A stretch of 64,000 nucleotides of DNA from a virus, in the UHGV virus genome UHGV-0371537, one strand, 5' to 3'. Below are positions 1,752 through 46,084 of this stretch, piece by piece (the first letter of the stretch is position 1; every line of letters starts with the position of its first letter). The translations under genes were made by a program, and so were the position numbers. The notes beneath the pieces are model-generated. The model ran no database searches. It worked only from the letters and a program-made list of their open reading frames with translations, and was not told the origin of the DNA.

Positions 1752-1807
1752 TCAATAACCTCGGGCGGCTTATCATAAAGTCGCCCTTTCATTTGAGAGA
1801 CTATATC

Positions 1808-2470
1808 ATGGAAAAACTTTATTCTATTATCGTCGGTCCTGATCCCGACGGATTATTCTTCGCCCCGTTGTCCTATGTCGCCCACGCCCGTATCGGCAGT
1901 CATTACGCGTATTGCACACATGGTCACGACGGTTCCAATGTGCTCCATTATAGTCGCCTGAACGATTTCCTGGCACTTCAACCAGAAGACGTTGTGCTGG
2001 CGCGTCGCGTGTTCATTGATTTCAACGCGATGCACAACAACGAAATCGACGCTCGCTACCATGCCATGCGTTCTATGGAAGGGCGAGACTGCATTTATCG
2101 TATCGACCATTTTGGTGAGTTTACCCAATCGATCGATTGGTTCGTTTCGGACAAGACATTGGGCGAAAGAATTGTCACGACTCCGTGGGTGCATGCGGAA
2201 CAACTTCGTGTGTCTACCGATGCGTACAAAGAAGTCGACAATCTGTGCAACAAGTTCCGCATCTCGGTGACCTGTAATCAAGACCTGGGAGAAGAGATCC
2301 AATGGACAGCTGAGTCTCCTCATTTCAGTGACCTGGTGATGACAGCAGAAACCCGTTCCCGCGCTGTCGTTCAGTTGGTTCTATGGGCGTTCTACCAGCG
2401 CACCCCGTTCTCCTACATGGGGCAGAAAGCGATTGACGAACTCCTGAAGTCTCACGCGGTGGAGGTATAA
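1808..2470 (+). CDS. hypothetical protein
   Basis: ORF track 1793-2470; ATG 1808 in context ctatatcATG. Confidence 0.5.
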   Translation: MEKLYSIIVGPDPDGLFFAPLSYVAHARIGSHYAYCTHGHDGSNVLHYSRLNDFLALQPEDVVLARRVFIDFNAMHNNEIDARYHAMRSMEGRDCIYRIDHFGEFTQSIDWFVSDKTLGERIVTTPWVHAEQLRVSTDAYKEVDNLCNKFRISVTCNQDLGEEIQWTAESPHFSDLVMTAETRSRAVVQLVLWAFYQRTPFSYMGQKAIDELLKSHAVEV

Positions 2471-10755: not shown

Positions 10756-10920
10756 ATGAACTACGAACAAATTAAACTGGCTATTCTGATCTTTGCATGC
10801 ATCATTGACATCATTGCATTTTCTCGTGAAACCGAAAGGAAAAACTACCTGAAAGCACTGGGGTATCTCGGGTTCTCTGCCTGGTTCTGTTATCTACTTG
10901 CAGGTCAAATCCTGAAATGA
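10756..10920 (+). CDS. small hydrophobic protein (54 aa)
   Basis: Unlisted ORF MNYEQIKLAILIFACIIDIIAF...; two hydrophobic segments; stop overlaps next ATG. Confidence 0.3.
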   Translation: MNYEQIKLAILIFACIIDIIAFSRETERKNYLKALGYLGFSAWFCYLLAGQILK

Positions 10921-11246
10921 AAGTCGTCCACTTCAAGAAGGAGCCATATGACGTCTACATCGGGCGTCCCGGGAAATGGGGAAACCCGTTCGAGGTCAAA
11001 GACCACGGGCGGGGGAACTGCATCGAGTTGTTTGAAGACTACTTGTATGTGCGCCTGATTGAAGGGGATATCACCGAGGATGAACTCCTTGAGCTTGATG
11101 GGAAGATCTTGGGGTGTTGGTGTAAGCCGCGCCCCTGTCACGGAGATGTTTACGTCAAAGTCATTGGTCGTATTAAACTATTCCGCAAGCTGGGTAAATC
11201 CTTTACTGAACACCTGAGACAAACATATGTCAGAATCAAAAGATGA
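10917..11246 (+). CDS. DUF4326-like protein
   Basis: YDVYIGRPGKWGNPF ... GKILGCWCKPRPCHGDV pattern as I recall for DUF4326. Confidence 0.55.
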   Translation: MKVVHFKKEPYDVYIGRPGKWGNPFEVKDHGRGNCIELFEDYLYVRLIEGDITEDELLELDGKILGCWCKPRPCHGDVYVKVIGRIKLFRKLGKSFTEHLRQTYVRIKR

Positions 11247-11511
11247 AATCCAAGACTCCTGTGACATTGCGGTTGAAATCTGGAACCGTCGGAACCCGCA
11301 TTACCAGGTGACCGTCACGCCAAATCGCTACCTTGAGCAGGGTGGTTTGATTGTTGTTGATGCTGTGGTTGCGTTCAACAAGTACGCCGACATGCAAATC
11401 CTGGACGGCAACTTCACTGTCGCGACCAAGACGGCTTGGGATGACCCGATGGAGTTTGTCTACGGCTGGCTGGAGTGTATCGAAGAATCCTACCACCTCA
11501 TCTACGAATGA
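11227..11511 (+). CDS. hypothetical protein
   Basis: ORF track; followed by hairpin gggcac...gtgccc plus T-run. Confidence 0.4.
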   Translation: MSESKDEIQDSCDIAVEIWNRRNPHYQVTVTPNRYLEQGGLIVVDAVVAFNKYADMQILDGNFTVATKTAWDDPMEFVYGWLECIEESYHLIYE

Positions 11512-11610
11512 GGCTGAAGGGCACTAAATATCACGTGCCCTTTATCTTTTAACCCCTGTCAGGAGGCTCAATCGAGCTGCAAGTCGACAAACCACATAAG
11601 GAACGCCATC

Positions 11611-12225
11611 ATGACGATGACAACGTTGAAGGCCATGGCCTTGTCCGTGACCTTTACCATTGCCAGCGGGAATGTGCACGCTTCCCAAAATACAAGTCAA
11701 TGTGTTTATGATTTCTCTGAGCAACAACTTAATACGCTGGCAACTGCCTATCACATAGGCAAGACACAAGATCTTGGTTACACTCTGGCCGCCATATCTT
11801 GGCGAGAGAGCCGCGCTGGTGAAGATGTAGTGTCAATGCGCTATGGACTCAAGGCGGCCAACATGGGAGCCTTTCAGAACAAGGTGAAGACAGTTGGTGA
11901 TCGCGAAGGTTGTAAGAATCGCAAGTGCTATGCCAATGTCGCCATAAAGTTGCTGACCGACCAAGAATATGCCGCGCAAGCCGCCCTCGAAGAGATGCAG
12001 TTCTGGCTGACCTATCACAAGCAGAATGTACGCAAATCCCTCTCCTCTTACAATGCTGGCTTCGCCCGTAATCCCGCATCGAACGCTTATGCCGCTGACG
12101 TCGTGAAGAAAGCTAAATATCTTCAGAAATGTGTGTCCTTCAAAGGCCGGACCATCTCCGAGGTAGATCCTCAGGTGATCGCCATGAACAAGCGCACGAT
12201 AGAGAAACTGAAGAGGACAAGATAA
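11611..12225 (+). CDS. secreted lytic transglycosylase-like protein (SLT domain)
   Basis: N-terminal signal-peptide-like MTMTTLKAMALSVTFTIASGNVHA; AISWRESRAGE...GAFQ...YNAG resemble SLT catalytic motifs (E-S, GLMQ, AYNAG). Confidence 0.55.
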   Translation: MTMTTLKAMALSVTFTIASGNVHASQNTSQCVYDFSEQQLNTLATAYHIGKTQDLGYTLAAISWRESRAGEDVVSMRYGLKAANMGAFQNKVKTVGDREGCKNRKCYANVAIKLLTDQEYAAQAALEEMQFWLTYHKQNVRKSLSSYNAGFARNPASNAYAADVVKKAKYLQKCVSFKGRTISEVDPQVIAMNKRTIEKLKRTR

Positions 12226-12863
12226 TGAACATCACTCCATCTCAGACCGGATATGAACATATCTTGGTCTTCATCGCTCTACAGGGCGCGAAGGAAGGCA
12301 TCATCGTATCCGAGTACTCGGGGACTGTGCGCCTTGCCGATTACGTCGCACCCGAGGCGTTCATTAAGAAGTGTATTGATGCGTGGTGCCTCTATGCCCT
12401 CGGCACGTATCCTGCCCCTCCTGAGGGCGAGCTGTTGTTTACTGTACCGACTCCGGCTGCTGGCGATACGGACGCGATCTTTGCCGATATGCTGGCCAAG
12501 GGGTATCTGGTGTATGATATCACTCACGATGTCTACTCCTTCACCTCGCTGAACACCGTGTTTGGGTTCACCATCACGTCTGAAGCCAACATCCCTGACT
12601 GGGGCATCTTGGCGTGGGGCGTTGACGGCCTGGGCGCAACCTATGCATCGTCCGATGTCGGTCCTGTGTTGATTGATGAGGGTGTAACCATGGAGCAGTA
12701 CCTTGCTCAGTTCCCTCAGCACAATATCACAGGCAGCGACATCATTTTAGTTCAGCCTGGTGCTATCGCTCTCCCCCGTTTGGTGGATGGATGGAAGCCT
12801 CAGCTGAAGGATATCATCGCCGGGATCAGATTCCATATTCCTGTGGTGAACCCAACGCCGTAA
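12225..12863 (+). CDS. hypothetical protein
   Basis: ATG 12225 with gaagagga RBS; TAATG overlap with upstream gene. Confidence 0.45.
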   Translation: MNITPSQTGYEHILVFIALQGAKEGIIVSEYSGTVRLADYVAPEAFIKKCIDAWCLYALGTYPAPPEGELLFTVPTPAAGDTDAIFADMLAKGYLVYDITHDVYSFTSLNTVFGFTITSEANIPDWGILAWGVDGLGATYASSDVGPVLIDEGVTMEQYLAQFPQHNITGSDIILVQPGAIALPRLVDGWKPQLKDIIAGIRFHIPVVNPTP

Positions 12864-12879
12864 AAATAATTCAATAAAA

Positions 12880-12899
12880 GGGGCTTTCGCCCCTTTACT
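12880..12899 (+). terminator. rho-independent terminator (hairpin ggggc-tttc-gcccc plus T-run)
   Basis: Read directly; T-run overlaps the -35 of the following promoter. Confidence 0.5.
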
Positions 12900-12922
12900 T
12901 CTTCAATATCCTTCCCTATACT
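12894..12922 (+). promoter_or_regulatory. early-type promoter TTTACT-N17-TATACT
   Basis: Immediately follows terminator hairpin; identical architecture at 26635-26663. Confidence 0.5.
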
Positions 12923-12970
12923 TCATTCCATAAGCAGTACGACACCAACTTGAAACGAAGGAACTATATT

Positions 12971-13330
12971 ATGGCTATCACCACAAAAACTGAATTGAAC
13001 GCGATCCTGAAAGAAGCTGGCTTCGGTAGTATCAAACGCCAGGGCAAGGTTTTACGCGATGGCGGTAAAATCGTAAAGGGCATCATGTTGGGAAGTACTG
13101 GCCCGTTGAGCATCAGCTCCCCTCAGTATGACAATCTTCGTAAACTGGCGCGTGAACTTCTCCAAGAAGACCTCCATATCACGACGCAAGAAACCAATTA
13201 TGTGGTTTTGGAATGCAACAAATTCATCGTCAGCCTTTACATCTGCAGCACCCGCTCATATCCGGTGTCTGAAGGTTATGACCCAATGTATCTGACCCAT
13301 TATGCTCAGGTTACTGTCAAAGCAAAATAA
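12971..13330 (+). CDS. hypothetical protein
   Basis: ATG 12971 in context ggaactatattATG downstream of promoter cassette; terminator follows. Confidence 0.5.
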   Translation: MAITTKTELNAILKEAGFGSIKRQGKVLRDGGKIVKGIMLGSTGPLSISSPQYDNLRKLARELLQEDLHITTQETNYVVLECNKFIVSLYICSTRSYPVSEGYDPMYLTHYAQVTVKAK

Positions 13331-13341
13331 TCAAATTCAAC

Positions 13342-13368
13342 GGGGAGCTTCGGCTCCTCTTTTGTTTT
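13342..13368 (+). terminator. rho-independent terminator
   Basis: Stem with ttcg loop followed by ttttgtttt. Confidence 0.6.
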
Positions 13369-13414
13369 CGCTAATTAAGGAAAACCGCACCGATTTATTA
13401 TCAGGAGAATTACA

Positions 13415-15403
13415 ATGGCCACCCCATCTTTCTTAAATTTCCTTGAAGAGTCTAAACAATTAGACGAAGCGTTCAACTCCGCTCCGTATGAGCTGACCAT
13501 GGGTAAGAAGAACGCAGGCGATGTGTTCTTCACCTTCATCGACGAAGATGAAAAGGAATACCGTATTCAGTTCTATACCCCACAGGGGCTGGGCAAGAAC
13601 GTTCGTCAGGTCTTCATCGGCCAGAAGCGCGGCTCCGTCTACCCTGATGCCATCGCTCGCTTCAAAAACCCAATGCGCGTCATCGCCTCCATGATCGAAG
13701 CGACCAAGCAGTTCCTGGCGACCCCTCTGGGCAAGACCATCGATGGTTATGCTGTCAACTTCTCTAAGAAAGCGCTGGAACGCGGGATGACCCTGATTCC
13801 TAAGATCATCCGCCAGTCCGGCCTGAAGCAGAAACTGAACGTCATGGACCTGACTTACGCGCCTGTCCCTGACCGTGGTTATGTGTGGTTGGTCCGCAAG
13901 GGCAAAGATCCGGCTCAGGTATTCGACGGTCCGAAGATGCAGGGCATCACCTGGGATGATCCAGACAAGGTCGGTGACGTTCCGGTTCAGAACAATACCC
14001 CAGATGTGGGGACTTCATCTTCTGTTGATGATTCCAACGGATGGAAATTAACTTCAAACGGGGATCAGCCTATGTTGATCTGGGTTGGCAAAGAGAGAGG
14101 CCGCATGAACACGGCAAATATCGCTCCCCACTACAATGAGCCAGGCGTGTATGTTGGCGCATACATGAATGAGAAATCTGTGCGTGGGCAAAGTGCTGAT
14201 TTCATTGCTCGTCAGTTGAAATTACCGCAAGTCCCTATCAGTATCCTGAATGATTTCACCACGGCGTCCACAAAATTTTGGAAAGGTTCTCAGCAGAAGT
14301 CTGCGCCAGCTGACTCCAACACCACTATTGGTGCTCGGGGTGTGGGAACTGGGTCTGGTTCTTCTGAAATCGAAATCAACCGCGACTGGTACAACAGCTC
14401 AGACACTGGTCTGGTGTTGAAGAGCGGGCGCGACCCGATTCGCGGAAACTACACCCGCTTGATGAGCGGTTCGAGAGAAGTAGCCACATTCTATGGCTAT
14501 GATTTTGACAAATACCCAGACGGAACTGAAGTATCTTGGAATATGAAGCGCGGCTTCACCAACCAAGACTTGGTCGGTGCGTCCATGACCAAACAGAAGA
14601 AAGGCATGTACGATCAGTACACTTTCAAGAAAGGTGCTCAGTTAATTCTGGTGGTGGACGTTGATACCAGCAACAATACCAACACCCTCAGTTCTAACGA
14701 CCTAAAAATCCCGCGCAACGCCGAAGTATTCGGTGAAACTGGTAGTGGTTTCTCCGTTCGGTGGGCTGTCAATTTCCCCGAAACGGGAAAATATGCCGGT
14801 ACTTCTATGATAACCAACGTAACCTATTATCATGACAAAGGCAAAGTTGCATTCACCCCAATTGTCTCTCAGAAAGGGCGTACCCTGAACAATCCGAAGA
14901 CATATGAACTTCCTTTGAACAAAGATTTGGTCCAGAGTGTGATTGATGAGATTTCATCAAAAATGGTATATCTTTCCAGAAACCTCCAACAGTTGAAAAG
15001 TCAGACATACAACCCAAACCAGGTTTTCTTGAATGATATAACCATCACGGATAAAGGTGAAGTGATTTGGAACGATTACAACTTGTCTGACGGCAAAGTT
15101 ACACAAATTATGCTGTCCATGATAAGCGCAGAAAATAAACGCTTGGAGAAAGTGACAAACAGGCCGGATATCACATTACCAAAGAAACAAGCCGAAGTAG
15201 TAGAATTTATAAACCGGATGATTGATATTGATCTCGGACCTTATTTGAGAGAACCCAAAAAACGTGATGTGGTATTATTCGACTCTTCTGAATTGTCGAT
15301 AAACCAACTCAACAACATAGAACGCCTGGGAAGAGAAACAGGAAAATGGTCTCTTCAGTCAAACGGCGGTATGGGTCATGCACTATTTCTGAATGTTTGG
15401 TGA
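13415..15403 (+). CDS. large protein with capsid-targeting-like N-terminus (candidate encapsidated effector)
   Basis: aggag RBS; N-terminus MATPSFLNFLEE resembles T4 internal-protein/Alt targeting sequence; 3' part markedly A+T-richer. Confidence 0.65.
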   Translation: MATPSFLNFLEESKQLDEAFNSAPYELTMGKKNAGDVFFTFIDEDEKEYRIQFYTPQGLGKNVRQVFIGQKRGSVYPDAIARFKNPMRVIASMIEATKQFLATPLGKTIDGYAVNFSKKALERGMTLIPKIIRQSGLKQKLNVMDLTYAPVPDRGYVWLVRKGKDPAQVFDGPKMQGITWDDPDKVGDVPVQNNTPDVGTSSSVDDSNGWKLTSNGDQPMLIWVGKERGRMNTANIAPHYNEPGVYVGAYMNEKSVRGQSADFIARQLKLPQVPISILNDFTTASTKFWKGSQQKSAPADSNTTIGARGVGTGSGSSEIEINRDWYNSSDTGLVLKSGRDPIRGNYTRLMSGSREVATFYGYDFDKYPDGTEVSWNMKRGFTNQDLVGASMTKQKKGMYDQYTFKKGAQLILVVDVDTSNNTNTLSSNDLKIPRNAEVFGETGSGFSVRWAVNFPETGKYAGTSMITNVTYYHDKGKVAFTPIVSQKGRTLNNPKTYELPLNKDLVQSVIDEISSKMVYLSRNLQQLKSQTYNPNQVFLNDITITDKGEVIWNDYNLSDGKVTQIMLSMISAENKRLEKVTNRPDITLPKKQAEVVEFINRMIDIDLGPYLREPKKRDVVLFDSSELSINQLNNIERLGRETGKWSLQSNGGMGHALFLNVW

Positions 15404-15475
15404 AACAAGCTGAACTTGAACAGAATAAAGCCCCTCCGGGGGCTAATTACATCTAAATCCCCGAGGAGAGATCCA

Positions 15476-16048
15476 ATGAAACCTTTTATCGAATATTTTA
15501 AAGAGCAAGCTGCACAGCCTCAGACCCATGCTGGTGTCCAGGGTAAGACCGTATCCATCACCAAGCAAGCTGACGGCACCCAGTGGTGTTCCGGCGCTAC
15601 CGTGACCCAGATCACTCCTGACAATCAGGCGGATGTCTACAACCTGGAGTTAACCAACGGCAACACCATCAAGGTGAAGCTGACCCCAGACCAGACTCAC
15701 GGTATCTCCCAAGGTCAGGAAGTTGTTGCTGTCCACGATGGCTTCGAATTCTTCTTCTTCGGCAAGTCCGCCGACAAAGGCCAGGTGACTGAAGCCTATG
15801 CCCAGGAACTGGCGAACATGGACAAGATGATCGGTAAAGCACTGGGTGTTGGCAAGTCCCGCAAGAGTGGTCGCACTGAGTTCGAATACTCTGGCATCCC
15901 TGGCATCGGCAAGGCGATCACCGTGAACTTCGGCGGCGAAGATGACCCATATGTGATCGTCACCTGCAACGGCAAAGAGCAGGACATCAGCAAGGGTAAA
16001 AACCTGGCTGCTGACATTGCCAAGTTCCTCGGTGTTAAGCCTGTGTAG
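15476..16048 (+). CDS. internal-protein-like (capsid-targeting N-terminus)
   Basis: gaggag RBS; N-terminus MKPFIEYFKE resembles T4 CTS MKTYQEFIAE. Confidence 0.6.
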   Translation: MKPFIEYFKEQAAQPQTHAGVQGKTVSITKQADGTQWCSGATVTQITPDNQADVYNLELTNGNTIKVKLTPDQTHGISQGQEVVAVHDGFEFFFFGKSADKGQVTEAYAQELANMDKMIGKALGVGKSRKSGRTEFEYSGIPGIGKAITVNFGGEDDPYVIVTCNGKEQDISKGKNLAADIAKFLGVKPV

Positions 16049-16083
16049 AAGGGTGAACTTTGCAACCGGGTGAGTCGTAAAAT

Positions 16084-16108
16084 AAACCCCGCTTTTCGCG
16101 GGGTTTTG
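16084..16108. terminator. bidirectional rho-independent terminator between convergent internal-protein genes
   Basis: aaaccccgc-ttttc-gcggggttt: 9-bp stem flanked by A-run and T-run. Confidence 0.7.
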
Positions 16109-16714
16109 TTATTTCACATACATACTGACTTGTACTTTCTTACCTTTTTCGTTTTTGACGTCCATCAGCTTGGATGCACCATTCAGTTTCATGACGGTTC
16201 CGCGTTCTTTGCCGCCATTCGGTAACTCGTATTCAATATCTTCCCCAGGAGATGGCATACCCGCATGAGGTCCCATAACCATGGCGATCTTATAACGAGC
16301 CAAGCCGGGGCGACCGCCTTTATACGCATACCAACCACCTTCAGTCATTTCTTTCCATTGCTTGTTACCGTCAATGGAGATAAAGGAATTGCCCATACCT
16401 GATTTGACATCCAACAAGTCAATATATTTGCCTGATTTGTTGTACTTGACAGCGGTGTCAGTATCAACCTTGTCAATCATCTGGGCGCTGGCAAACTGTC
16501 CATCTTTCAATCCAGATGCTGAGATGATGTCTTTGGCATTGGCCAGGATTATCTTGCGACCGTCAGGGGTTTCAAAGGTGGCTTTGTCGCCACTAACACT
16601 AACTCGCAAGAAAGTGCCGATATTGTCTTCGGTGGACTTGCCGATCTTGTCTGACTTGATATGAACAGACATCGGTGGCGCGGCTTCGGTCAAAAAGTCT
16701 TGAAAAGTTTTCAT
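16109..16714 (-). CDS. internal-protein-like (capsid-targeting N-terminus)
   Basis: N-terminus MKTFQDFLTEA nearly identical in pattern to T4 CTS MKTYQEFIAEA; GGAGAA RBS. Confidence 0.65.
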   Translation of the reverse strand: MKTFQDFLTEAAPPMSVHIKSDKIGKSTEDNIGTFLRVSVSGDKATFETPDGRKIILANAKDIISASGLKDGQFASAQMIDKVDTDTAVKYNKSGKYIDLLDVKSGMGNSFISIDGNKQWKEMTEGGWYAYKGGRPGLARYKIAMVMGPHAGMPSPGEDIEYELPNGGKERGTVMKLNGASKLMDVKNEKGKKVQVSMYVK

Positions 16715-16803
16715 TTTCGTTCTCCAGTTATATTATTCTATATAGTACCTCATGGACCCATTAACACTAAATACTAGATGGTTCACAATACAGGAAACAA
16801 ATC

Positions 16804-17157
16804 ATGGTTAACGCGAGTATTTTCATCAACCGTGGACTGCTTGCTATAGCCCACTCTCATGCCCTGCACTTCGTTACAACGTCCTATGCCAAGCACAAAG
16901 CTCTCGGGGAGTTCTACGGGGAACTGGAGGACTTGCTGGACACGTTTACCGAAGCATACATCGGTGCGGGTGGCCAGTACGTTCCGTCGTTTGAGAACAT
17001 CAAGCTCTATAACCCAGACCCTATCTCCTATGTCAACAGCGTGGTGATAGACGTCGATGGCATCTACAGGCAGTGCGACTCCCACCTTCAGAACACGCTT
17101 GATGAAATCAAGACGCTGTGCTATCAGACGATCTACAAACTGAAGCAGCTGTCGTAA
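16804..17157 (+). CDS. hypothetical protein
   Basis: ORF track; divergent from 16109-16714. Confidence 0.45.
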   Translation: MVNASIFINRGLLAIAHSHALHFVTTSYAKHKALGEFYGELEDLLDTFTEAYIGAGGQYVPSFENIKLYNPDPISYVNSVVIDVDGIYRQCDSHLQNTLDEIKTLCYQTIYKLKQLS

Positions 17158-17214
17158 GTCAATACGAAATAAAGGCATATAATTTTGCTCATTATTCACC
17201 GAAAGGAAAGGACA

Positions 17215-17826
17215 ATGAGCAAAATCTTTACCCCGACACATCGTGAAGGATGTGAGATCGCGGCCAACTACCTGCGCGGTCGCATGAACTGCGGCGCAGT
17301 CTTCATCGAACCAAACTCCTTCGACAACAAAGAATCGCCAGATGCCATCGGGTTTCGTTCAGGCGGGTGCTCTGTCCTGATGGAAGTGAAGGTGTCCCGC
17401 GCCGACTTCCTCACCGACAAGAAGAAGCCCCATCGGATGGACCCCACAACAGGGATGGGCGCATACCGCTTTTATGTCTGCCCTCAGGATGTGATCAGGG
17501 TTGAAGACCTGCCACCAAAGTGGGGGTTGTTCTACTTCACACCTCGCAAGTCCCTGATGCCCGTTCATGTGCCGGACATGCAATACTCCTCGTTGTCATC
17601 ACCAGAGCATTATCAGAAGTATCTTGATGAACAGATCAAGAGAGGAAGAACCGTCACCCGGCATATGCGCAGCTACATGGAACTTCTCGACGGCTTCGCC
17701 CACTTTGAGCGCAACACGGCTGGAGAACAGAATATCCTGTATGGGGCTTGGCGGCAACTGTGTATAGCTCAAAGTCGTGGTGTAGACTATACTGTGACCG
17801 AAGTGTTCCAGAGGCCGAAGATCTAA
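17215..17826 (+). CDS. PD-(D/E)xK nuclease-like protein
   Basis: ESPDAIGF...VLMEVKVSRADF matches D...E-x-K restriction-endonuclease-fold core; start at internal ATG 17215. Confidence 0.45.
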   Translation: MSKIFTPTHREGCEIAANYLRGRMNCGAVFIEPNSFDNKESPDAIGFRSGGCSVLMEVKVSRADFLTDKKKPHRMDPTTGMGAYRFYVCPQDVIRVEDLPPKWGLFYFTPRKSLMPVHVPDMQYSSLSSPEHYQKYLDEQIKRGRTVTRHMRSYMELLDGFAHFERNTAGEQNILYGAWRQLCIAQSRGVDYTVTEVFQRPKI

Positions 17827-18884
17827 TGAAATTTCTTGACGAGCAATTTATCAACAACGTGTCGCCCCGCCTTGACAAGTTCAAGTGGGAGCGCGTTGGT
17901 ACTGTCGCAAACTTCCGTTGTCCCCTGTGTGGTGACTCCACGAAGTCTGCCAACAAGCGCCGTGGATACTTCTTCTATGATCGGGATCATGACTGCTTCC
18001 GGTTCAAGTGCCACAACTGCAACCAGATGAATGGCTGGTCATTTGAGTTCTGGCTGAAGAAGTTCGATGAGCGCCTCTCAACCGAATACAACATGGAGAA
18101 GTTCCGTCTGCTGGGCGATACATCAGGCAGACCGCTTCCTTCCCTGAAGCCGTTACCAAAGCTGACACAGACCGCCCGTATTGGATCAGTGGCGGCGAAA
18201 CGCGACGAGAGCCTCCTCGGCAATATGCTGCGCCTTGATCTGCTACCGCCTGACCATAAGGCTCGACAGTACGTACAGTGGCGAGGACTACCGGAGAGCA
18301 CGTGGTCTTTGCTGTATTACACGCAGCACTTCCGACAGGATCTAAAACAGTTCGAAACAGATCCTGAAAAGCAGCTGAAGATCCCTGATGATGAACGGCT
18401 GGTGATTCCATTCTGGACGCAAGACGGGCGCATGAAGATCGTCCAGGGGCGCGCATTCGACGAAACAGCCACATTGCGTTATGCAACAGTCAAACCCAAG
18501 GACGAAGACACGAAGGTGTACGGTGAAGACCGGGTTAACTTTCACAAGACCAAGCTGGTCGTGGAAGGTCCGATTGACAGCCTCTTCCTACCCAATTGCA
18601 TGGCATCAGCTGATGCGGATTTGCTGAGTGTGAAGGGTGACATCTATATCCCTGATAACCAGTACCGGAACCCGCAGGTGTGTGACGGCATTCAGAAGAT
18701 GATAGATAAAGGTGTCAAGGTCGTGTTGTTCCCGCCGAGTATGCCATGGAAAGATATCAACGACATGGTCATGCCATCGAAGGGTAACATGGCCATACGA
18801 GACCTCCTGAAGCTGATTGCCCAGAACGTCTACCAGGGGATGGCCGCATCACTGCAATTTGCCGAACTGAGGAAAGTGAAATGA
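17826..18884 (+). CDS. 61: DNA primase gp61
   Basis: Zinc-binding CPLCGDS...RRGYF...CHNC and VVEGPIDSLF match the T4 gp61 pattern. Confidence 0.8.
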   Translation: MKFLDEQFINNVSPRLDKFKWERVGTVANFRCPLCGDSTKSANKRRGYFFYDRDHDCFRFKCHNCNQMNGWSFEFWLKKFDERLSTEYNMEKFRLLGDTSGRPLPSLKPLPKLTQTARIGSVAAKRDESLLGNMLRLDLLPPDHKARQYVQWRGLPESTWSLLYYTQHFRQDLKQFETDPEKQLKIPDDERLVIPFWTQDGRMKIVQGRAFDETATLRYATVKPKDEDTKVYGEDRVNFHKTKLVVEGPIDSLFLPNCMASADADLLSVKGDIYIPDNQYRNPQVCDGIQKMIDKGVKVVLFPPSMPWKDINDMVMPSKGNMAIRDLLKLIAQNVYQGMAASLQFAELRKVK

Positions 18885-19087
18885 CGTTAGAAGAACTGAA
18901 CAAGCTGGACGACGGGGAGATCGTGCGGGGGTACTTGAAATCCCGTGAGGGTTATGTCCTATCTGGGGAAGAGTCTCCGAGTTTCATCCACGGCTGGAAG
19001 AATGGTCAGGTGGACTTCCATGGTGTTCCCATCAGTCCTGAGCAGGCCGAATTGGCTCGCGAGTTTGTAAGATTTCGCCCGAGCTAA
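18881..19087 (+). CDS. hypothetical protein
   Basis: ORF track; overlaps primase stop; terminator follows. Confidence 0.4.
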   Translation: MTLEELNKLDDGEIVRGYLKSREGYVLSGEESPSFIHGWKNGQVDFHGVPISPEQAELAREFVRFRPS

Positions 19088-19116
19088 AACTTTTTACTTC
19101 ACATCACCCTCCCTCC

Positions 19117-19140
19117 AGGCCTCGTCGAATGAGGCCTTTT
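19117..19140 (+). terminator. rho-independent terminator
   Basis: aggcctc-gtcgaat-gaggcct then TTT. Confidence 0.5.
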
Positions 19141-19181
19141 AAAATACTTCAAAAATATTTTAAAAATTTATTGAAAAAGAC

Positions 19182-19210
19182 TTTACTCTTCAATAATGAT
19201 GCACTATTAT
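19182..19210 (+). promoter_or_regulatory. early-type promoter TTTACT-N17-TATTAT followed by stem-loop 19222-19238
   Basis: Read directly; TTCAATAA lies in the spacer. Confidence 0.5.
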
Positions 19211-19283
19211 AGTTCACATAGGGCGGTAACACACCGCCGAATGAAAAGTGAAACGAACCAACTACATTATGAGGAATTACATC

Positions 19284-19772
19284 ATGGCTACTACCAAAAC
19301 TCTGATCACCAACGGCACCATCTCTTTCGAACTGAACACCGAAGTTGCTAAAGTTGAAATGTTCCGCATCGCTCAGGCAGCTGGCTTCACTGGTGGCAAA
19401 ACTTCCTTCATGAACCTGCTGAACGGCAAAGTGGAAGCGACTAACGGCTTCACCCTGGTAGAGCAGACTGTGGTTGACAAAGCCGTGGTTGCTAAGGCTG
19501 CTGACAAAGTTGGCATGCTGAAAGACCTGGGTCACGACATCCACGTTGTCGAAGCGAATACCGAAACTTACGGCACCATCGTAGTCGGTAAAGGTCGCAT
19601 CCAGCTGAACCCACTGAACAACGGTTCCTTCTCTGTGATGGTCTTCCCTAAGAAGGGCTATGACAACACAGACATCGTGAAAGCTGCTGGCGGCGAAGCG
19701 AAAGCTCAGTATGTCAAAATGGGTAAACTGAGCGCCAAAGACGTTCAGACCCTGGTGAGCAAACTGGCTTAA
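19284..19772 (+). CDS. hypothetical protein
   Basis: gagga RBS; sits behind promoter plus stem-loop cassette and before a terminator. Confidence 0.5.
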   Translation: MATTKTLITNGTISFELNTEVAKVEMFRIAQAAGFTGGKTSFMNLLNGKVEATNGFTLVEQTVVDKAVVAKAADKVGMLKDLGHDIHVVEANTETYGTIVVGKGRIQLNPLNNGSFSVMVFPKKGYDNTDIVKAAGGEAKAQYVKMGKLSAKDVQTLVSKLA

Positions 19773-19826
19773 TCGAAAGGGGGAGGAAACTCCCCTCCTT
19801 ATTCAGATTTTTGGTAGGAGACCATC

Positions 19827-20015
19827 ATGTCCCGCGCTGTCATTCAAGCCTCTCCAGGCGCTCTCTGGGTTGTCAACCGCATTCCGAACAAAGTCTTTCC
19901 TCAGTTTCAAGAGGAACTCGAGCAGGCGATGTTAGCAGTCCTGGAAAAATACGGGTACGACACTGAAGTTCGTACGTCCTTCAACGAAGTCATGCCAGTG
20001 GTGGTAGCAAGATGA
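19827..20015 (+). CDS. hypothetical protein
   Basis: ORF track only. Confidence 0.35.
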   Translation: MSRAVIQASPGALWVVNRIPNKVFPQFQEELEQAMLAVLEKYGYDTEVRTSFNEVMPVVVAR

Positions 20016-20311
20016 AACTGAGCAGCTCAGAAGCGACCAAGATTGCGGAAGAATCAGCACAACTGCTGGCTTCACATACTTCAAAACCCTGGGTAATAGA
20101 CACATGTTCTTTCTCCCAAGTTATCCTTTCTTGCGGGGATGTTTACGTTCAGCATCTACTAACCACGGGATCTTGGTTTGCTGGTTTTAAAGAATATGAT
20201 GATAGTATTACCAGTCGTTATGTTGGTTCTGCAATAATGGCATATGAAGGTTTAAAGTCCGCTGTCGAAGATTACATTACCCAGTTGAAAGAAATCCACG
20301 ATAATATGTGA
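20012..20311 (+). CDS. hypothetical protein
   Basis: ORF track; A+T-rich. Confidence 0.35.
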   Translation: MKLSSSEATKIAEESAQLLASHTSKPWVIDTCSFSQVILSCGDVYVQHLLTTGSWFAGFKEYDDSITSRYVGSAIMAYEGLKSAVEDYITQLKEIHDNM

Positions 20312-20380
20312 CACGGCAGTTCCTCAAGTAGTTCACTTTCACTTTAAATACCTTCGCATTCATTGCGGAGGTATTTTCTT

Positions 20381-22122: not shown

Positions 22123-22191
22123 GTAACTCACCAACACTCCCCGCCGCCTTCAATCTACGAGGGCGGCGTATAATATGTTCCGAGACTAATC

Positions 22192-22851
22192 ATGAATTAT
22201 CAAAATATCTATGACTCTCTGATACAAAGAGCCAAGACCCGTTCATTGGTTGGTTATTCTGAAACCCACCATATTATCCCTAGATGTATGGGAGGGAAAG
22301 ATGACAAACATAATCTGGTGGAGTTGACACCAGAAGAACATTATTTAGCACATCAATTGTTAGTCAAAATATATCCCAAAAATTTCAAATTAGCATTTGC
22401 AGCTAATGCTATGTGCGTAAACAATGAATTCTCCGGTAGATCTTGTAACAAATTATTCGGTTGGTTGCGGAGAAAACTTTCTCATTCCAATAAACAGATG
22501 TACAAAGACAACCCTAATTTGAGGAAAATTCGTTCCGATCAAATGAAACAGACACATGTAAAGTATTCTCATTTGCGGGAAATACAGTCTAAACGTTTGA
22601 AGGAAAACAATATATGCGTGATAAAACAACCTTGGGAAAGTAACCATGCCACCAAAGAGTCTTTGGATATATGGAAACGCGCCGACGAATATTATGATTG
22701 GTGGTTGTGCAACCAAAAAGGTTGCACGTTCATGGCGAAAGCGTTTGGGTTCAAAAACAAGACGACTCCGCATTTCACAATGATTAATAAATTTAAATCT
22801 GGGTGGAATCCCAAAGCCGACCCAGAGTGGTTAGAGTTTGTAAGTCAATAA
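22192..22851 (+). CDS. HNH homing endonuclease (free-standing)
   Basis: ETHHIIPRCMGGKDDKHNLVELTPEEHYLAH = HNH motif; A+T-rich island between phoH and nrdA. Confidence 0.75.
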   Translation: MNYQNIYDSLIQRAKTRSLVGYSETHHIIPRCMGGKDDKHNLVELTPEEHYLAHQLLVKIYPKNFKLAFAANAMCVNNEFSGRSCNKLFGWLRRKLSHSNKQMYKDNPNLRKIRSDQMKQTHVKYSHLREIQSKRLKENNICVIKQPWESNHATKESLDIWKRADEYYDWWLCNQKGCTFMAKAFGFKNKTTPHFTMINKFKSGWNPKADPEWLEFVSQ

Positions 22852-22910
22852 GCCCCGAAGAGTTTATTATTGGGGTGGAGTTCATTCACCAATAAATCCA
22901 GGAAATATAA

Positions 22911-26383: not shown

Positions 26384-26608
26384 ATGATTACGATCTATTC
26401 CAAACAAGGTTGCGCTCAGTGTGTTACAGCTGAAAATCTGTGTAAGATGAAAGGGCTGGAACACAAGATCCTCAAGCTGGACAAAGACTACCAGCTGGAA
26501 GAACTTCAGAAGTTGACGGGTAAGCAGCGCATGTCTATGCCTGTAATCGTCCTCGCTGACCAGACCGTGACCGACGTTACTGGACTCGCCGCCAGCCTCA
26601 AGCGCTGA
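26384..26608 (+). CDS. glutaredoxin-like redoxin (NrdC/NrdH-like)
   Basis: 74 aa; CAQC active-site motif near N-terminus; immediately downstream of nrdB. Confidence 0.7.
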   Translation: MITIYSKQGCAQCVTAENLCKMKGLEHKILKLDKDYQLEELQKLTGKQRMSMPVIVLADQTVTDVTGLAASLKR

Positions 26609-26616
26609 TCTGTCAA

Positions 26617-26640
26617 AGCCCCTCAATGAGGGGCTTTACT
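26617..26640 (+). terminator. rho-independent terminator after nrdC-like gene
   Basis: agcccctc-aatg-gaggggct then tttactttt. Confidence 0.55.
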
Positions 26641-26663
26641 TTTGAAACACCCTCCCCTATACT
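26635..26663 (+). promoter_or_regulatory. early-type promoter TTTACT-N17-TATACT
   Basis: Overlaps 3' arm of the nrdC terminator hairpin; paralogous to 12894-12922. Confidence 0.5.
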
Positions 26664-26713
26664 TCCCAATAATTCATTGGCATTCGCCACAAATTGAAAG
26701 CGGGAACTATATC

Positions 26714-27175
26714 ATGACAAACAAAGTGCTCACCAACCCACTGCACAACTTCGGTTACATTCAGCTTCCTCTGGTGATTGATACCCTATACGCTGATGAC
26801 AAAGAGGAGATCTGTTGGTCTCCAACCGCTCTGATTGAACGCGAAATCTTCAAGTCTGTTGTTGATGTTATGTTCCGTATCGGTCGCAATGCACCTCTGG
26901 TCTACCTCGGCAAAGCAACTGAACTGAAGACAAGCCACAACGAACGCTTCCTGCGCATTGATACTACCGGGTGCTCCCAGCAAGACTTCAACACACTGCG
27001 CAATTATGTTCTGGTCAACCGCCCGGTATCCCAGCATCGTCCTTACCTGACGTCAATGCACATAGACAGTTTCATCACTGACGTACACCTGCAGGCTGAA
27101 ACCCTCCATGAAGAGGAAACAGGCCGAGCTATCGACACTGTCTTAAATATGGTTGTGATCACCCTCGCGGAGTAG
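26714..27175 (+). CDS. hypothetical protein
   Basis: ATG 26714 in context ggaactatatcATG behind promoter cassette. Confidence 0.5.
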   Translation: MTNKVLTNPLHNFGYIQLPLVIDTLYADDKEEICWSPTALIEREIFKSVVDVMFRIGRNAPLVYLGKATELKTSHNERFLRIDTTGCSQQDFNTLRNYVLVNRPVSQHRPYLTSMHIDSFITDVHLQAETLHEEETGRAIDTVLNMVVITLAE

Positions 27176-27180
27176 CCATC

Positions 27181-27570
27181 ATGAACTATCCTCTTGACGC
27201 GAAATTTATTCTTCCAAGGAAGGAACTAGACACCTTCCGGGTTCTGCATCAACTTTTGGCCGCCGGGGAAACAATCCCGCTATACGAAGGTGGAAAGAAG
27301 GTAGGAAAAGGAATTTCGTGTGCGATCGATGACAGTGAATACTGGGCATTTGATTTCAATCGCACCGAGAATTTCAAGCCAAGGGATTCATCAATGATGA
27401 TGAGGTTCATGATTGACAAACCAATTGACCTACAGAAGTATGATCTGTTCTTGGACGCGATCCCATACGAATTCAGGGAGGAGGGTCTGAAGTACAGATT
27501 TGCGTTGTTGGTGTGCTTCAAAATGACTATCGTCCTGAAGCCTATGTTCACACCGCCCAACGCAAGTTAA
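27181..27570 (+). CDS. hypothetical protein
   Basis: ORF track. Confidence 0.45.
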   Translation: MNYPLDAKFILPRKELDTFRVLHQLLAAGETIPLYEGGKKVGKGISCAIDDSEYWAFDFNRTENFKPRDSSMMMRFMIDKPIDLQKYDLFLDAIPYEFREEGLKYRFALLVCFKMTIVLKPMFTPPNAS

Positions 27571-37448: not shown

Positions 37449-37477
37449 GTTTACATCTATGAAAAATGCAGTATATT
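37449..37477 (+). promoter_or_regulatory. T4-early/sigma70-type promoter GTTTAC-N17-TATATT
   Basis: Read directly: GTTTAC 37449-37454, 17-nt spacer, TATATT 37472-37477; about 70 nt upstream of ATG 37548. Confidence 0.55.
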
Positions 37478-38505: not shown

Positions 38506-38518
38506 ATTGGAGCAGTCT

Positions 38519-46000: not shown

Positions 46001-46017
46001 GTTGACCAAACACCAAG

Positions 46018-46045
46018 AAGCCCAGTCAAGTACTGGGCTTTTTAA
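46018..46045 (+). terminator. rho-independent terminator
   Basis: aagcccagt-caagt-actgggctt then tttaattt. Confidence 0.6.
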
Positions 46046-46055
46046 TTTCAATAAC

Positions 46056-46084
46056 TTTACTTTCAAGAATAAAGCGCCTATTAT
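46056..46084 (+). promoter_or_regulatory. early-type promoter TTTACT-N17-TATTAT
   Basis: Flanked by TTCAATAA (46047-46054) and TATTGAAG (46093-46100). Confidence 0.5.

What the first reader, a model, noticed from the sequence alone, without database searches (positions are those of the whole stretch)
12864..12973. Duplicated terminator-promoter-start cassette (copies at 12864-12973 and 26609-26716)
Both regions have the same layout: a GC hairpin (ggggc-tttc-gcccc; agcccctc-aatg-gaggggct), a T-run reading straight into TTTACT, exactly 17 nt, TATACT, then about 50 nt later the start context GGAACTATAT(T/C)ATG. Related promoters TTTACT-N17-TATTAT occur at 19182-19210 and 46056-46084. This resembles the promoter-early-stem-loop modules proposed to shuffle accessory genes among T4-type phages, and marks 12971-13330, 19284-19772, 26714-27175 and 46116-47321 as cassette-borne genes.
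Basis: seen in the sequence. Interest (0 to 1): 0.45.

Follow-up and report, generated by a model that had tools for sequence, protein, structure and literature searches.

The report
Gene-swapping terminator–promoter cassettes in a phage
The two look-alike stretches are real copies of a small "stop, restart, translate" control module that recurs in ViI-like (Ackermannviridae) phages and marks places where small genes have been swapped, as already described for T4-like phages.

Summary
The window comes from an Agtrevirus-like Ackermannviridae phage. Both regions have a GC hairpin whose T-run is the start of TTTACT, then exactly 17 nt, TATACT, a 48-50 nt unstructured leader and GGAACTATATYATG. 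From -35 to ATG they are 77% identical (local score 51; null 15.6±2.5).

They belong to a tighter subfamily, 77-90% identical, within about 9-10 TTTACT/TTTACA promoter-like sites in a related genome.

- Homology in most relatives stops exactly at ATG 12971-12973 and resumes at hairpin 13342.
- At least five unrelated ORF families occupy this slot.
- The window's ORF family also occurs behind the tail-sheath gene (phage maane, identical 31-nt promoter) and behind the capsid gene (phage T751). There it is flanked by 26-27 nt terminator repeats.
- SW16-7 has an insertion flanked by duplicated hairpin/-35 sequence.
- SKML-39 has a homing endonuclease gene inserted at copy 2's -35.

The genes at 19284, 26714 and 46116 are conserved residents, not mobile cargo. 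The start context is a genome-wide preference.

This is a new member of a known kind. Promoter activity is untested. The same extended motif in Pseudomonas phage YuA is annotated as needing a phage cofactor.

The parts
12877..12896 (+). Copy 1 stem-loop (AAAGGGGC tttc GCCCCTTT). Putative intrinsic terminator of the upstream operon; its 3' TTT is the start of the -35 hexamer.
   Evidence: -13.5 kcal/mol, z -4.67. The loop is inverted or varied in relatives.
12894..12922 (+). Copy 1 promoter-like element, TTTACT-N17-TATACT.
   Evidence: It is identical in SKML-39, Gloob, Ag3, SW16-7 and maane at the orthologous site. An identical 31-mer also sits at a second locus in maane.
12923..12970 (+). Copy 1 leader, unstructured, with AAGGA at 12958-12962 and the spacer ACTATATT. 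The predicted transcript start is near 12929-12930.
   Evidence: z -0.25, no structure; about 93% identical to the maane second-locus leader. The transcript start is inferred only.
12971..13330 (+). Cargo ORF, 119 aa, phrog_13016, function unknown. This is the swappable slot.
   Evidence: homology in most relatives ends at 12973; homologues in other contexts; no functional assignment.
13342..13359 (+). Downstream terminator hairpin GGGGAGC ttcg GCTCCTC plus a T-run. This is the right-hand boundary of the swapped slot.
   Evidence: -12.5 kcal/mol. Homology with relatives resumes at 13342-13345.
26615..26637 (+). Copy 2 stem-loop (AAAGCCCCTC aat GAGGGGCTTT). Putative terminator after the glutaredoxin-like gene 26384-26608.
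   Evidence: -17.2 kcal/mol, z -4.04. Listed as terminator Torf088 in the Ag3 paper.
26635..26663 (+). Copy 2 promoter-like element, TTTACT-N17-TATACT.
   Evidence: The hexamers and spacing are kept at the orthologous site in SKML-39, Gloob, Ag3 and SW16-7. Hexamer-matching copies also occur at orthologous sites in Kuttervirus and a third group, with varying spacers, but those were retrieved by a pattern that fixed the hexamers and spacing. SKML-39 has a homing endonuclease inserted after TTTACTTT.
26664..26713 (+). Copy 2 leader with GGGAAC and the spacer ACTATATC.
   Evidence: z -0.51; aligned with the copy 1 leader.
26714..27175 (+). Conserved resident gene, 153 aa, phrog_3902, driven by copy 2.
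19117..19137 (+). Terminator hairpin upstream of the 19182 promoter. A 44-nt AT-rich stretch separates them.
   Evidence: -13.6 kcal/mol, z -3.49. Listed as Torf101 in the Ag3 paper.
19182..19210 (+). Related promoter TTTACT-N17-TATTAT. The leader holds a degenerate copy of the subfamily start region (GTGAAACGAACCAACTACATTATG, 19248-19271) before the real start at 19284.
   Evidence: (69% to copy 1).
46015..46043 (+). Terminator hairpin upstream of the 46056 promoter.
   Evidence: -16.8 kcal/mol, z -5.48. Listed as Torf057 in the Ag3 paper. The loop is inverted in fGh-Ecl02.
46056..46084 (+). Promoter-like TTTACT-N17-TATTAT upstream of the conserved 401-aa gene 46116-47321. It shares only the hexamers and spacing with the two copies.
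   Evidence: 56%, which is background.
37450..37477 (+). A further family member, TTTACA-N16-TATATT (Porf069 of the Ag3 paper). It lies upstream of gene 37590-38444, the kinase-like gene and the dUMP hydroxymethylase-like gene.
   Evidence: The relatives carry an extra 288-nt ORF about 105 nt upstream.

Best explanation
The two regions are paralogous members of a family of compact regulatory cassettes in an Agtrevirus-like Ackermannviridae phage.

How each cassette works (inferred):
1. A GC-rich stem-loop ends transcription coming from the upstream genes.
2. Its U/T-run doubles as the first bases of a -35 hexamer. A T4-early-like promoter (TTTACT, 17 nt, TATACT) therefore restarts transcription with no spacer.
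3. The transcript has a leader of about 41-46 nt without stable structure. It ends in a preferred translation start (A/G)GGAACTATAT(T/C)ATG.

Role in gene exchange: stretches of 30-100 nt of the same cassette recur at several loci and in co-infecting relatives. They can therefore serve as portable homology for the phage's recombination machinery. Small ORFs are inserted, deleted or exchanged between the cassette, or its start codon, and the next terminator. The neighbours' regulation is not disturbed.

Shown here: the anatomy, the paralogy, conservation at orthologous sites, sharp homology breakpoints at the ATG and at the next hairpin, five unrelated ORF families in the copy 1 slot, the same promoter-leader-ORF unit in three genomic contexts, and direct repeats of cassette or terminator flanking insertions.

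Inferred: termination, promoter activity and timing, the sigma factor used, and that recombination occurred within the cassettes rather than merely next to them.
For: Anatomy and statistics.

Family structure:
- Identity from -35 to ATG is 77% between copy 1 and copy 2.
- Copy 1 is 86-90% identical to the SKML-39 27370, maane second-locus, T751 and LHE287 copies, against a background of about 55%.
- The SKML-39 genome has 9-10 TTTACT/TTTACA sites, all on one strand. Four are of the tight subfamily, with the ATG 49-51 nt after the -10.

Breakpoints at copy 1:
- Against four relatives the left break lies at 12966-12991 and the right break at 13342-13345.
- Among 146 phage records, only 11 carry the window's ORF here. 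Many alignments end at query position 274, which is window 12973, the G of the ATG.
- The first ORFs in the slot fall into five unrelated groups. Four were scanned and match different PHROG families: 13016, 9866, 31745 and 5704.
- Identity to maane jumps from 92% (10909-12991) to an unrelated ORF and then to 81%.

Mobility:
- Maane carries the exact 31-nt promoter twice.
- Its second copy drives a 120-aa homologue of the window ORF: 31% amino-acid identity, E 9e-17. The -35 to ATG stretch is about 93% identical.
- That unit is flanked by an exact 27-nt terminator repeat.
- The same unit lies after the capsid gene in Taipeivirus T751, with 26-nt repeats at 92%.
- It also lies after the tail-sheath gene in LHE287, with the promoter variant that Ag3 uses at another gene.
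- Only 8 of 182 records hold the maane-type unit.
- SW16-7 has a 356-nt insertion flanked by a repeat of hairpin + TTTACTTC: 73 nt at 84%, identical over all but one of the first 47 nt.
- SKML-39 has a homing endonuclease inserted right after TTTACTTT of copy 2.
- SW16-7 has a chimeric copy 2 spacer.

The recombination genes gp46/gp47 are encoded in the window's counterparts.
Against: - No transcript data exist for any Ackermannviridae phage in the searchable literature.
- A generic sigma70 scan is not enriched in this region: 13 sites against 17.5 expected. The tool's terminator rule does not list the two hairpins on the + strand, because the T-run after the longest stem is interrupted (TTTACTTC).
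- About 17 indel or replacement sites separate the window from four relatives over about 41 kb. Most are not at cassettes: homing endonucleases at 22192 and 39159, and replaced ORFs at 16039-16796, 20016-20319 and 27183-27575. If indels are assumed to be confined to intergenic DNA, 2-3 hits at cassettes is not statistically significant.
- Three of the four 'cargo' genes are conserved.
- The same extended motif in Pseudomonas phage YuA is annotated as a sigma70-like promoter requiring a phage-encoded cofactor. It was inactive in a promoter trap.
- From my own knowledge, the DNA of these phages carries hypermodified thymidine, whose effect on the T-rich hexamers is unknown.
Confidence: 0.62

Rival explanations
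1. This is ordinary regulatory punctuation only. Each site is an independently maintained terminator followed by a promoter. They look alike because selection keeps the same consensus signals. Gene turnover nearby is caused by homing endonucleases and illegitimate recombination, and the cassettes are passive boundaries that merely survive because they are needed.
For: - Orthologous cassettes are conserved across genera together with their downstream genes: copy 2, 19182 and 46056.
- The start context is genome-wide.
- Many indels in the window lie away from cassettes and several are homing endonucleases.
- The window-level enrichment of breakpoints at cassettes is not significant.
Against: - Similarity runs through the spacer and the leader, not just the hexamers.
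- An identical 31-mer and a ~93% identical 80-nt stretch sit in front of ORFs that are only 31% identical at non-orthologous loci.
- Insertions are flanked by direct repeats of cassette or terminator sequence.
- Chimeric promoters exist: the SW16-7 copy 2 spacer, and LHE287 combining the Ag3 Porf138 promoter with the copy 1 leader.
- Five unrelated ORFs all join at exactly the same ATG.
Confidence: 0.22
2. The promoter part is not a plain host sigma70 early promoter. It belongs to a class that needs a phage-encoded cofactor, or thymidine-hypermodified template DNA, as proposed for the near-identical motif of Pseudomonas phage YuA/M6. The cassettes would then mark a delayed (middle) transcription class. 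This rival concerns only the promoter step and is compatible with the recombination role.
For: - YuA and M6 carry multiple copies of CTTTACTTCTTCGG-N-C-TATACT-T. The type A cassettes read CTTTACTTCTTCAATA-N-C-TATACT-T, so 20 positions are shared at the same 17-nt spacing.
- The YuA GenBank record calls these 'putative sigma70 promoter requiring phage-encoded cofactor'.
- Nine YuA promoters with a conserved motif have mapped transcript starts. The four known earlier showed no activity in a promoter trap.
- YuA and the window phage share the kinase-like and dUMP hydroxymethylase-like genes of the thymidine-modification pathway, and a small protein of unknown function.
- The CBA120 authors could not find early promoters and noted the absence of MotA/AsiA.
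Against: - The hexamers are good sigma70 matches and equal the T4/PST early consensus TTTACW-N17-TAYWAT.
- I could not see the YuA motif figure or table. The identity of the nine-promoter motif with this sequence therefore rests on the four annotated repeats.
- The shared motif could be coincidence. My scan pattern fixed 17 of the 21 shared positions.
- No candidate cofactor was identified.
Confidence: 0.25
3. The resemblance between the two regions is chance.
For: None beyond the shortness of the motifs.
Against:: 0 of 100, 0 of 100 and 0 of 2000 shuffles reach the observed values. The elements are also conserved at orthologous sites in many genomes.
Confidence: 0.01

Closest known systems
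PeSLs (promoter-early stem-loops) of T4-like phages RB49/phi1, T4/PST and KVP40/nt-1 (Arbiol et al. 2010, PMC2839356; Comeau et al. 2014, PMC4122927)
   Same: - Same order of parts: GGGG...CCCC-type stem-loop, -35, 17 nt, -10, Shine-Dalgarno, ATG.
- The same -35 as the T4/PST set (TTTACW).
- Several mutually similar copies per genome.
- ORF replacements, insertions and deletions that join at the cassette, including insertions flanked by two cassette copies and 'half' cassettes (SKML-39 27370, the SKML-39 homing-endonuclease junction).
   Different: - The host family is Ackermannviridae, not Straboviridae. None of the 8 PeSL-citing phage papers in the searchable library concerns this family.
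- In copies 1 and 2 there is no AT-rich spacer: the hairpin's T-run is the -35 itself.
- The -10 is TATACT.
- Crossovers often sit exactly at the ATG, and a 17-nt start region (CGAAGGAACTATATCATG) is itself repeated between stacked ORFs.
- Mini-circles and terminator or promoter activity, shown experimentally for RB49, are untested here.
- There are few copies per genome (about 10, of which 4-5 are closely alike) and no tandem pair inside this window.
Morons of lambdoid and other phages (Hendrix and colleagues; named from my own knowledge)
   Same: The maane, LHE287 and T751 units are a promoter + single ORF + terminator inserted between two genes of a late structural operon. They have their own transcription signals and are present in only a minority of close relatives.
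   Different: Morons are defined in temperate phages and are often expressed from the prophage. Here the phage is virulent, and the inserted unit shares its promoter and leader with resident cassettes elsewhere in the genome.
Repeated 'sigma70 promoter requiring phage-encoded cofactor' motif of Pseudomonas phages YuA/M6 (Yuavirus)
   Same: The extended sequence C-TTTACT-TCTTC ... C-TATACT-T at 17-nt spacing, with multiple copies per genome on one strand ahead of early/middle genes. Both phage groups encode the 5-hydroxymethyl-dU pathway genes.
   Different: - The phage family and the host are unrelated.
- The YuA copies have no hairpin abutting the -35 and have short leaders of 19-34 nt.
- Outside the motif, leader identity is at background, 51-61%.
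- No gene-swapping role has been described for them.
T4 early promoters and intergenic terminator-promoter junctions
   Same: The -35 TTTAC(T/A), the 17-nt spacing, a TAT-type -10 and AT-rich upstream stretches (19182, 46056, 37450).
   Different: T4 uses Alt/Mod ADP-ribosylation and MotA/AsiA to time its promoter classes. ViI-like phages lack recognisable homologues.

Membership tests
PeSL (promoter-early stem-loop cassette) | GC-rich stem-loop immediately upstream of the promoter | tested here: met
   Hairpins at 12877-12896, 26615-26637, 19117-19137 and 46015-46043. Energies are -13.5 to -17.2 kcal/mol, z -3.5 to -5.5.
PeSL (promoter-early stem-loop cassette) | Sigma70-like -35 / 17 nt / -10, close to the family consensus (TTTACW-N17-TAYWAT for T4/PST) | tested here: met
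   TTTACT-N17-TATACT twice and TTTACT-N17-TATTAT twice: 4 hits against 0.01 expected. TATACT departs from TAYWAT at one position.
PeSL (promoter-early stem-loop cassette) | Shine-Dalgarno and start codon of the downstream ORF at the 3' end of the element | tested here: met
   AAGGA/GGGA 9 nt before ATG 12971 and ATG 26714.
PeSL (promoter-early stem-loop cassette) | Several mutually similar copies within one genome | tested here: met
   There are 5 in the window. SKML-39 has 9-10, with a subfamily 73-86% alike. Maane has two copies with an identical 31-mer.
PeSL (promoter-early stem-loop cassette) | Association with insertions, deletions and replacements between close relatives, with junctions inside the element | tested here: met
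   The copy 1 slot, the SW16-7 duplicated cassette, the maane/T751 units and the SKML-39 homing-endonuclease gene at the -35. Window-wide enrichment is not significant on this small sample.
PeSL (promoter-early stem-loop cassette) | Stem-loop terminates, and promoter initiates, transcription early in infection | not testable with these tools
   No transcript data were found.
PeSL (promoter-early stem-loop cassette) | Recombination between copies, producing mini-circles detectable by inverse PCR | not testable with these tools
   Only indirect evidence: direct repeats and chimeras.
PeSL (promoter-early stem-loop cassette) | Described host range: T4-like myoviruses (now Straboviridae) | tested here: not met
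   The window is Ackermannviridae: 91-95% identical to Agtrevirus phages. It is in the same order, Pantevenvirales. This is a taxonomic limit of the descriptions rather than a mechanistic criterion.
Moron | Autonomous unit of promoter + ORF + terminator lying between two genes, present in some relatives and absent in others | tested here: met
   The window unit 12877-13359 has its own promoter and terminators on both sides. Its homologues in maane and T751 are inserted in late operons, and only 8 of 182 records hold the maane-type unit.
YuA-type cofactor-dependent promoter | Motif CTTTACTTCTTC-N11-CTATACT | tested here: met
   Copy 1 matches all fixed positions. Copy 2 matches apart from TTGA in place of CTTC.
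YuA-type cofactor-dependent promoter | Inactive without a phage factor, active in infection | not testable with these tools
   Known only for YuA.

The most novel reading that the evidence does not exclude
The cassette promoter belongs to a distinct promoter class shared by two unrelated phage families, ViI-like Ackermannviridae and M6/YuA-like siphoviruses. Both families replace thymidine with 5-hydroxymethyl-dU-derived hypermodified bases. On this reading the common extended motif (C-TTTACT-TCTTC...C-TATACT-T) reflects recognition of hypermodified DNA, or a shared phage-encoded RNA polymerase cofactor. In Ackermannviridae the same elements have additionally become mobile linkers that move small genes between the replication, capsid and tail modules and across genera.
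Probability: 0.12. Interest if true: 0.7.

Novelty: new member of a known kind. Interest (0 to 1): 0.45.

Why it matters
ViI-like phages (Kuttervirus, Agtrevirus, Limestonevirus, Taipeivirus) are widely used candidates for biocontrol and therapy. Their early transcription signals have been called unidentifiable by informatics.

This analysis contributes three things:
- A concrete, testable set of promoters and terminators.
- Evidence that the PeSL style of modular gene exchange extends beyond T4-like phages to another family of the same order.
- One well-defined, highly permissive insertion slot (ATG 12971 to hairpin 13342). It has accepted at least five unrelated ORFs in nature and would be a natural site for engineering payloads.

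The link to the YuA motif, if real, would connect promoter recognition with thymidine hypermodification.

Tried and rejected
- Rfam scan of the whole window found no family.
- Folding the two leaders showed no structure beyond shuffles, z -0.25 and -0.51. A riboswitch or small-RNA reading was dropped.
- The generic sigma70 scan was not enriched and did not discriminate.
- The function of the cargo ORF 12971-13330 remains unassigned. Pfam and PADLOC gave nothing. The word-indexed search gave 1 homologue. The exhaustive search gave 16 small representative clusters. The AlphaFold model is confident (pLDDT 89.6) but has no PDB fold match with E ≤ 0.001.
- The alternative slot ORFs and the three resident genes have PHROG families of unknown function only.
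- A simple count of indel sites near cassettes in the window is suggestive but not significant once indels are restricted to intergenic DNA.
- Literature searches found no transcriptomics of Ackermannviridae and no report of the exact motif strings.
- The supplementary tables of the YuA transcriptome paper are not held.
- The window's homing endonuclease at 22192 sits just after the PhoH-gene terminator, not in a cassette.
Full report
**What the window is.** Megablast of 12000-20000 finds 272 phage records. The best are Agtrevirus members of the Ackermannviridae: Shigella phages Gloob and Ag3, and Salmonella phages SKML-39 and SW16-7, at 91-95% identity. The gene order matches the replication and nucleotide-metabolism region of these phages: gp46/47-like nuclease, primase, NrdAB, baseplate genes, SSB, dUMP hydroxymethylase, ligase. 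GC content is about 50%. Ackermannviridae now sit in the order Pantevenvirales together with T4. 'T4-type' is therefore right only in the broad sense.

**The observation.**
- Copy 1: hairpin 12877-12896, TTTACT 12894-12899, 17 nt, TATACT 12917-12922, ATG 12971.
- Copy 2: hairpin 26615-26637, TTTACT 26635-26640, 17 nt, TATACT 26658-26663, ATG 26714.
- In both, the TTT closing the hairpin is the TTT of the -35 hexamer. Terminator and promoter are fused without a spacer.
- TTTACT-N17-TATAMT occurs twice against 0.00 expected. TTTACT-N17-TATWMT occurs four times against 0.01 expected. All four are on the + strand and intergenic.
- The hairpins fold at -13.5 and -17.2 kcal/mol with z-scores of -4.7 and -4.0.
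- The similarity does not disappear in a proper alignment. The local score is 51 against 15.6±2.5 for a Markov null. Each copy is the other's best partner among 52 upstream regions.
- From -35 to ATG the two copies are 77% identical. Unrelated promoters of the same window, and YuA promoters, score about 50-60%.

There are three qualifications.
- The hairpins themselves are not homologous.
- The start context ACTATATYATG is a genome-wide preference: 10 sites against 1.5 expected, at many gene starts.
- The 46056 and 37450 promoters share only hexamers and spacing with the two copies. The 19182 promoter is intermediate and carries a degenerate relic of the subfamily's start region at 19248-19271.

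**The family.**
- The assembled SKML-39 genome has nine or ten TTTACT/TTTACA-N16-17-TAnnnT sites, all on one strand.
- Four of them form a tight subfamily: TTTACT followed by TCTTCAATA or TTTGAAA, a TATACT -10, the ATG 49-51 nt further on, and GAAGGAAcTATAyC before the ATG. The window's two copies are the orthologues of two of these.
- The site at SKML-39 27370 lies in the small-ORF cluster behind the capsid gene. It is a close paralogue of copy 1 (86%) that keeps only half of the hairpin.
- The Ag3 genome paper listed some of these elements singly: Porf100, Porf069 and Porf138, and terminators Torf088, Torf057 and Torf101. It did not list the two TATACT promoters and did not treat any of them as composite cassettes.
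- The CBA120 paper stated that early promoters could not be identified by informatics.

**Gene-content breakpoints at copy 1.**
- Against SKML-39, Gloob and Ag3, homology runs uninterrupted through the upstream gene, hairpin, promoter and leader. It stops at 12966-12991 and resumes at 13342-13345, the first base of the next terminator hairpin. SW16-7 carries the window's ORF.
- Among 146 phage records matching 12700-13420, only 11 cover the ORF. Many alignments end at query position 274, which is window 12973, the G of the start codon.
- In twelve genomes, the first ORFs found in this slot fall into five groups with no detectable similarity. Four were scanned and match different PHROG families: 13016, 9866, 31745 and 5704.
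- Where two ORFs are stacked (Ag3, L031, L054), the second is again preceded by ...CGAAGGAACTATATCATG. The start region itself is repeated at the joints.
- Identity between the window and the Kuttervirus maane is 92% over 10909-12991. It drops to an unrelated ORF and then to 81%. A mosaic boundary therefore coincides with the cassette.

**The cargo moves with the cassette.**
- An exact-match scan of IMG/VR for the 31-nt copy 1 promoter found it twice in one 159,128-bp contig. That contig is Salmonella phage maane, 100% identical.
- The second site lies just after the tail-sheath gene. It drives a 120-aa protein that is 31% identical (E 9e-17) to the window's 119-aa product.
- The 80 nt from -35 to ATG are about 93% identical between the two loci, while the ORF bodies have diverged strongly.
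- The maane unit is bracketed by an exact 27-nt direct repeat of the tail-sheath terminator, ACCCCGCTTCGGCGGGGTTTTTATTTG, 495 nt apart.
- Only 8 of 182 related records carry the unit. In most, homology ends right after the first terminator.
- The same terminator, AT-rich spacer, promoter, leader, ORF and terminator unit lies after the major capsid gene in the Taipeivirus T751, with 26-nt repeats at 92%.
- It also lies after the tail-sheath gene in LHE287. There the promoter is the variant TTTACTTCTTCAATAACTCACGTATAAT, which Ag3 uses in front of a different gene.

So one ORF family sits behind the same control region in three contexts. Promoter variants and ORFs are combined in different ways.

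**Further junctions inside cassettes.**
- About 2 kb upstream of the window's left end, SW16-7 has a 356-nt insertion with one ORF, relative to SKML-39 and Gloob. It is flanked by a repeat of hairpin + T-run + TTTACTTC: 73 nt at 84%, identical over all but one of the first 47 nt. Ag3 has a different ORF at the same place with its own hairpin and promoter.
- At copy 2, SKML-39 has an 817-bp homing endonuclease gene inserted immediately after GGGGC-TTTACTTT, with TTTACTTT present on both sides.
- SW16-7 has a copy 2 whose spacer has been replaced while -35, -10 and the 17-nt length are kept.

**What is not supported.**
- The genes behind copy 2 (26714-27175, phrog_3902), behind 19182 (19284-19772, phrog_3764) and behind 46056 (46116-47321, phrog_2319) are present at the same positions in every relative examined. 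For copy 2 this holds across three genera. They are resident genes.
- The variable stretch near 46056 lies downstream of the 401-aa gene, before the ligase.
- Of about 17 indel or replacement sites between the window and four relatives over 41 kb, only two fall inside the two tight-subfamily cassettes and one lies about 105 nt from the 37450 promoter. The rest include homing endonucleases at 22192-22851 and 39159-39749 and ORF replacements without a cassette.
- If indels are assumed to be limited to intergenic DNA, this count alone is not significant. The case rests on junction anatomy rather than on counts.

**How it most likely works.** Transcription from the upstream genes ends at the hairpin. 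RNA polymerase re-initiates at the fused promoter about 7 nt after the -10. The leader has no stable structure and no Rfam match. It ends in a strong, stereotyped start region.

Because 30-100 nt of nearly identical sequence recur at several loci and in related phages, homologous recombination can exchange whatever lies between a cassette and the next terminator. These phages encode the T4-type recombination genes. This is the PeSL model of Arbiol, Comeau and Krisch, and the inserted units also fit the definition of morons. The anatomy, paralogy, breakpoints and repeats are shown. Termination, initiation, timing and the recombination pathway are inferred.

**A caution about the promoter class.**
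- A degenerate scan (CTTTACTT-N15-CTATACTTC) of IMG/VR returned the Ackermannviridae loci and also about 30 sites in 46-60 kb contigs. These have the consensus CTTTACTTCTTCGG...C-CTATACTTCTTCACACG. One contig is Pseudomonas phage M6.
- In the related phage YuA, the GenBank record annotates four such repeats as 'putative sigma70 promoter requiring phage-encoded cofactor'.
- A recent ONT-cappable-seq study reports nine YuA promoters with a highly conserved motif. Four of them were known before and were inactive in a promoter trap. I could not see the motif figure or table.
- YuA and the window phage share the kinase-like and dUMP hydroxymethylase-like genes. From my own knowledge, both groups carry hypermodified thymidine.

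The shared extended motif may be coincidence, because my pattern fixed 17 of the 21 shared positions. It still means that 'host sigma70, immediate early' should not be taken for granted.

**Novelty and verdict.** The mechanism is the known PeSL/moron kind. The new point is its presence in Ackermannviridae. No report of this was found among the eight PeSL-citing phage papers in the searchable library. Also new are the zero-spacer fusion of terminator and -35, and the very sharp ATG junction. I rate it as a new member of a known kind, of moderate interest.

Noticed in passing
window 12880-12893, 13342-13359, 26617-26634, 46018-46040; L004 5833-5852 vs L001: In five different terminator hairpins, the loop is the exact reverse complement in a close relative while the stem is unchanged. 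The pairs are tttc/gaaa (window vs maane), ttcg/cgaa (window vs SKML-39), aat/att (window vs Ag3), caagt/acttg (window vs fGh-Ecl02) and aaac/gttt (SW16-7 vs SKML-39). Recurrent loop inversion suggests these palindromes are recombinationally active, by template switching or cruciform flipping.
   Followed up: partly
window 12893-12924; L011 (M6), L081 (YuA 10500, 22639, 29058, 31098): The extended promoter motif CTTTACTTCTTC-N11-CTATACT of copy 1 is also the multi-copy motif of Pseudomonas phages M6/YuA. In the YuA record it is annotated as a sigma70-like promoter needing a phage cofactor. Both phage groups encode 5-hydroxymethyl-dU pathway genes.
   Followed up: partly
window 22176-22919: A window-specific 744-bp insertion carries a homing endonuclease gene (22192-22851, phrog_655) immediately after the PhoH-gene terminator. 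It is 67% identical at the DNA level to the endonuclease that SKML-39 carries at copy 2. Ag3 has another endonuclease at about 21244.
   Followed up: partly
window 39159-39749: A window-specific 587-bp insertion encodes an HNH endonuclease (phrog_953). It lies between the kinase-like gene (38507-39184) and the dUMP hydroxymethylase-like gene (39766-40812). It is absent from all four relatives compared.
   Followed up: partly
window 16078-16797: A minus-strand ORF (16109-16714, 201 aa, no Pfam or PHROG match) lies behind a bidirectional terminator (16084-16106). It is shared only with Gloob. SKML-39, Ag3 and SW16-7 have a different 240-nt plus-strand ORF there.
   Followed up: no
window 27181-27570 and 20012-20311: These two small ORFs have no DNA-level homology to the ORFs at the same positions in the relatives compared: all four relatives for 27181-27570; SKML-39 and Gloob for 20012-20311, which Ag3 shares and SW16-7 lacks. 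No TTTACT cassette lies at the junctions, so ORF swapping also happens without cassettes.
   Followed up: no
window 1763-1810: A terminator hairpin (GGGCGGCTT atcata AAGTCGCCC) is followed after 13 nt by GAGACTATATCATG. This is the stereotyped start region directly behind a terminator with no recognisable promoter, possibly a 'half' cassette.
   Followed up: no
window 10917-11246: This small ORF (NrdA.1-like, phrog_464) shares a 36-aa stretch, 55% identical, with the 65-aa YuA gp22. It is one of only four proteins shared between YuA and the window.
   Followed up: no
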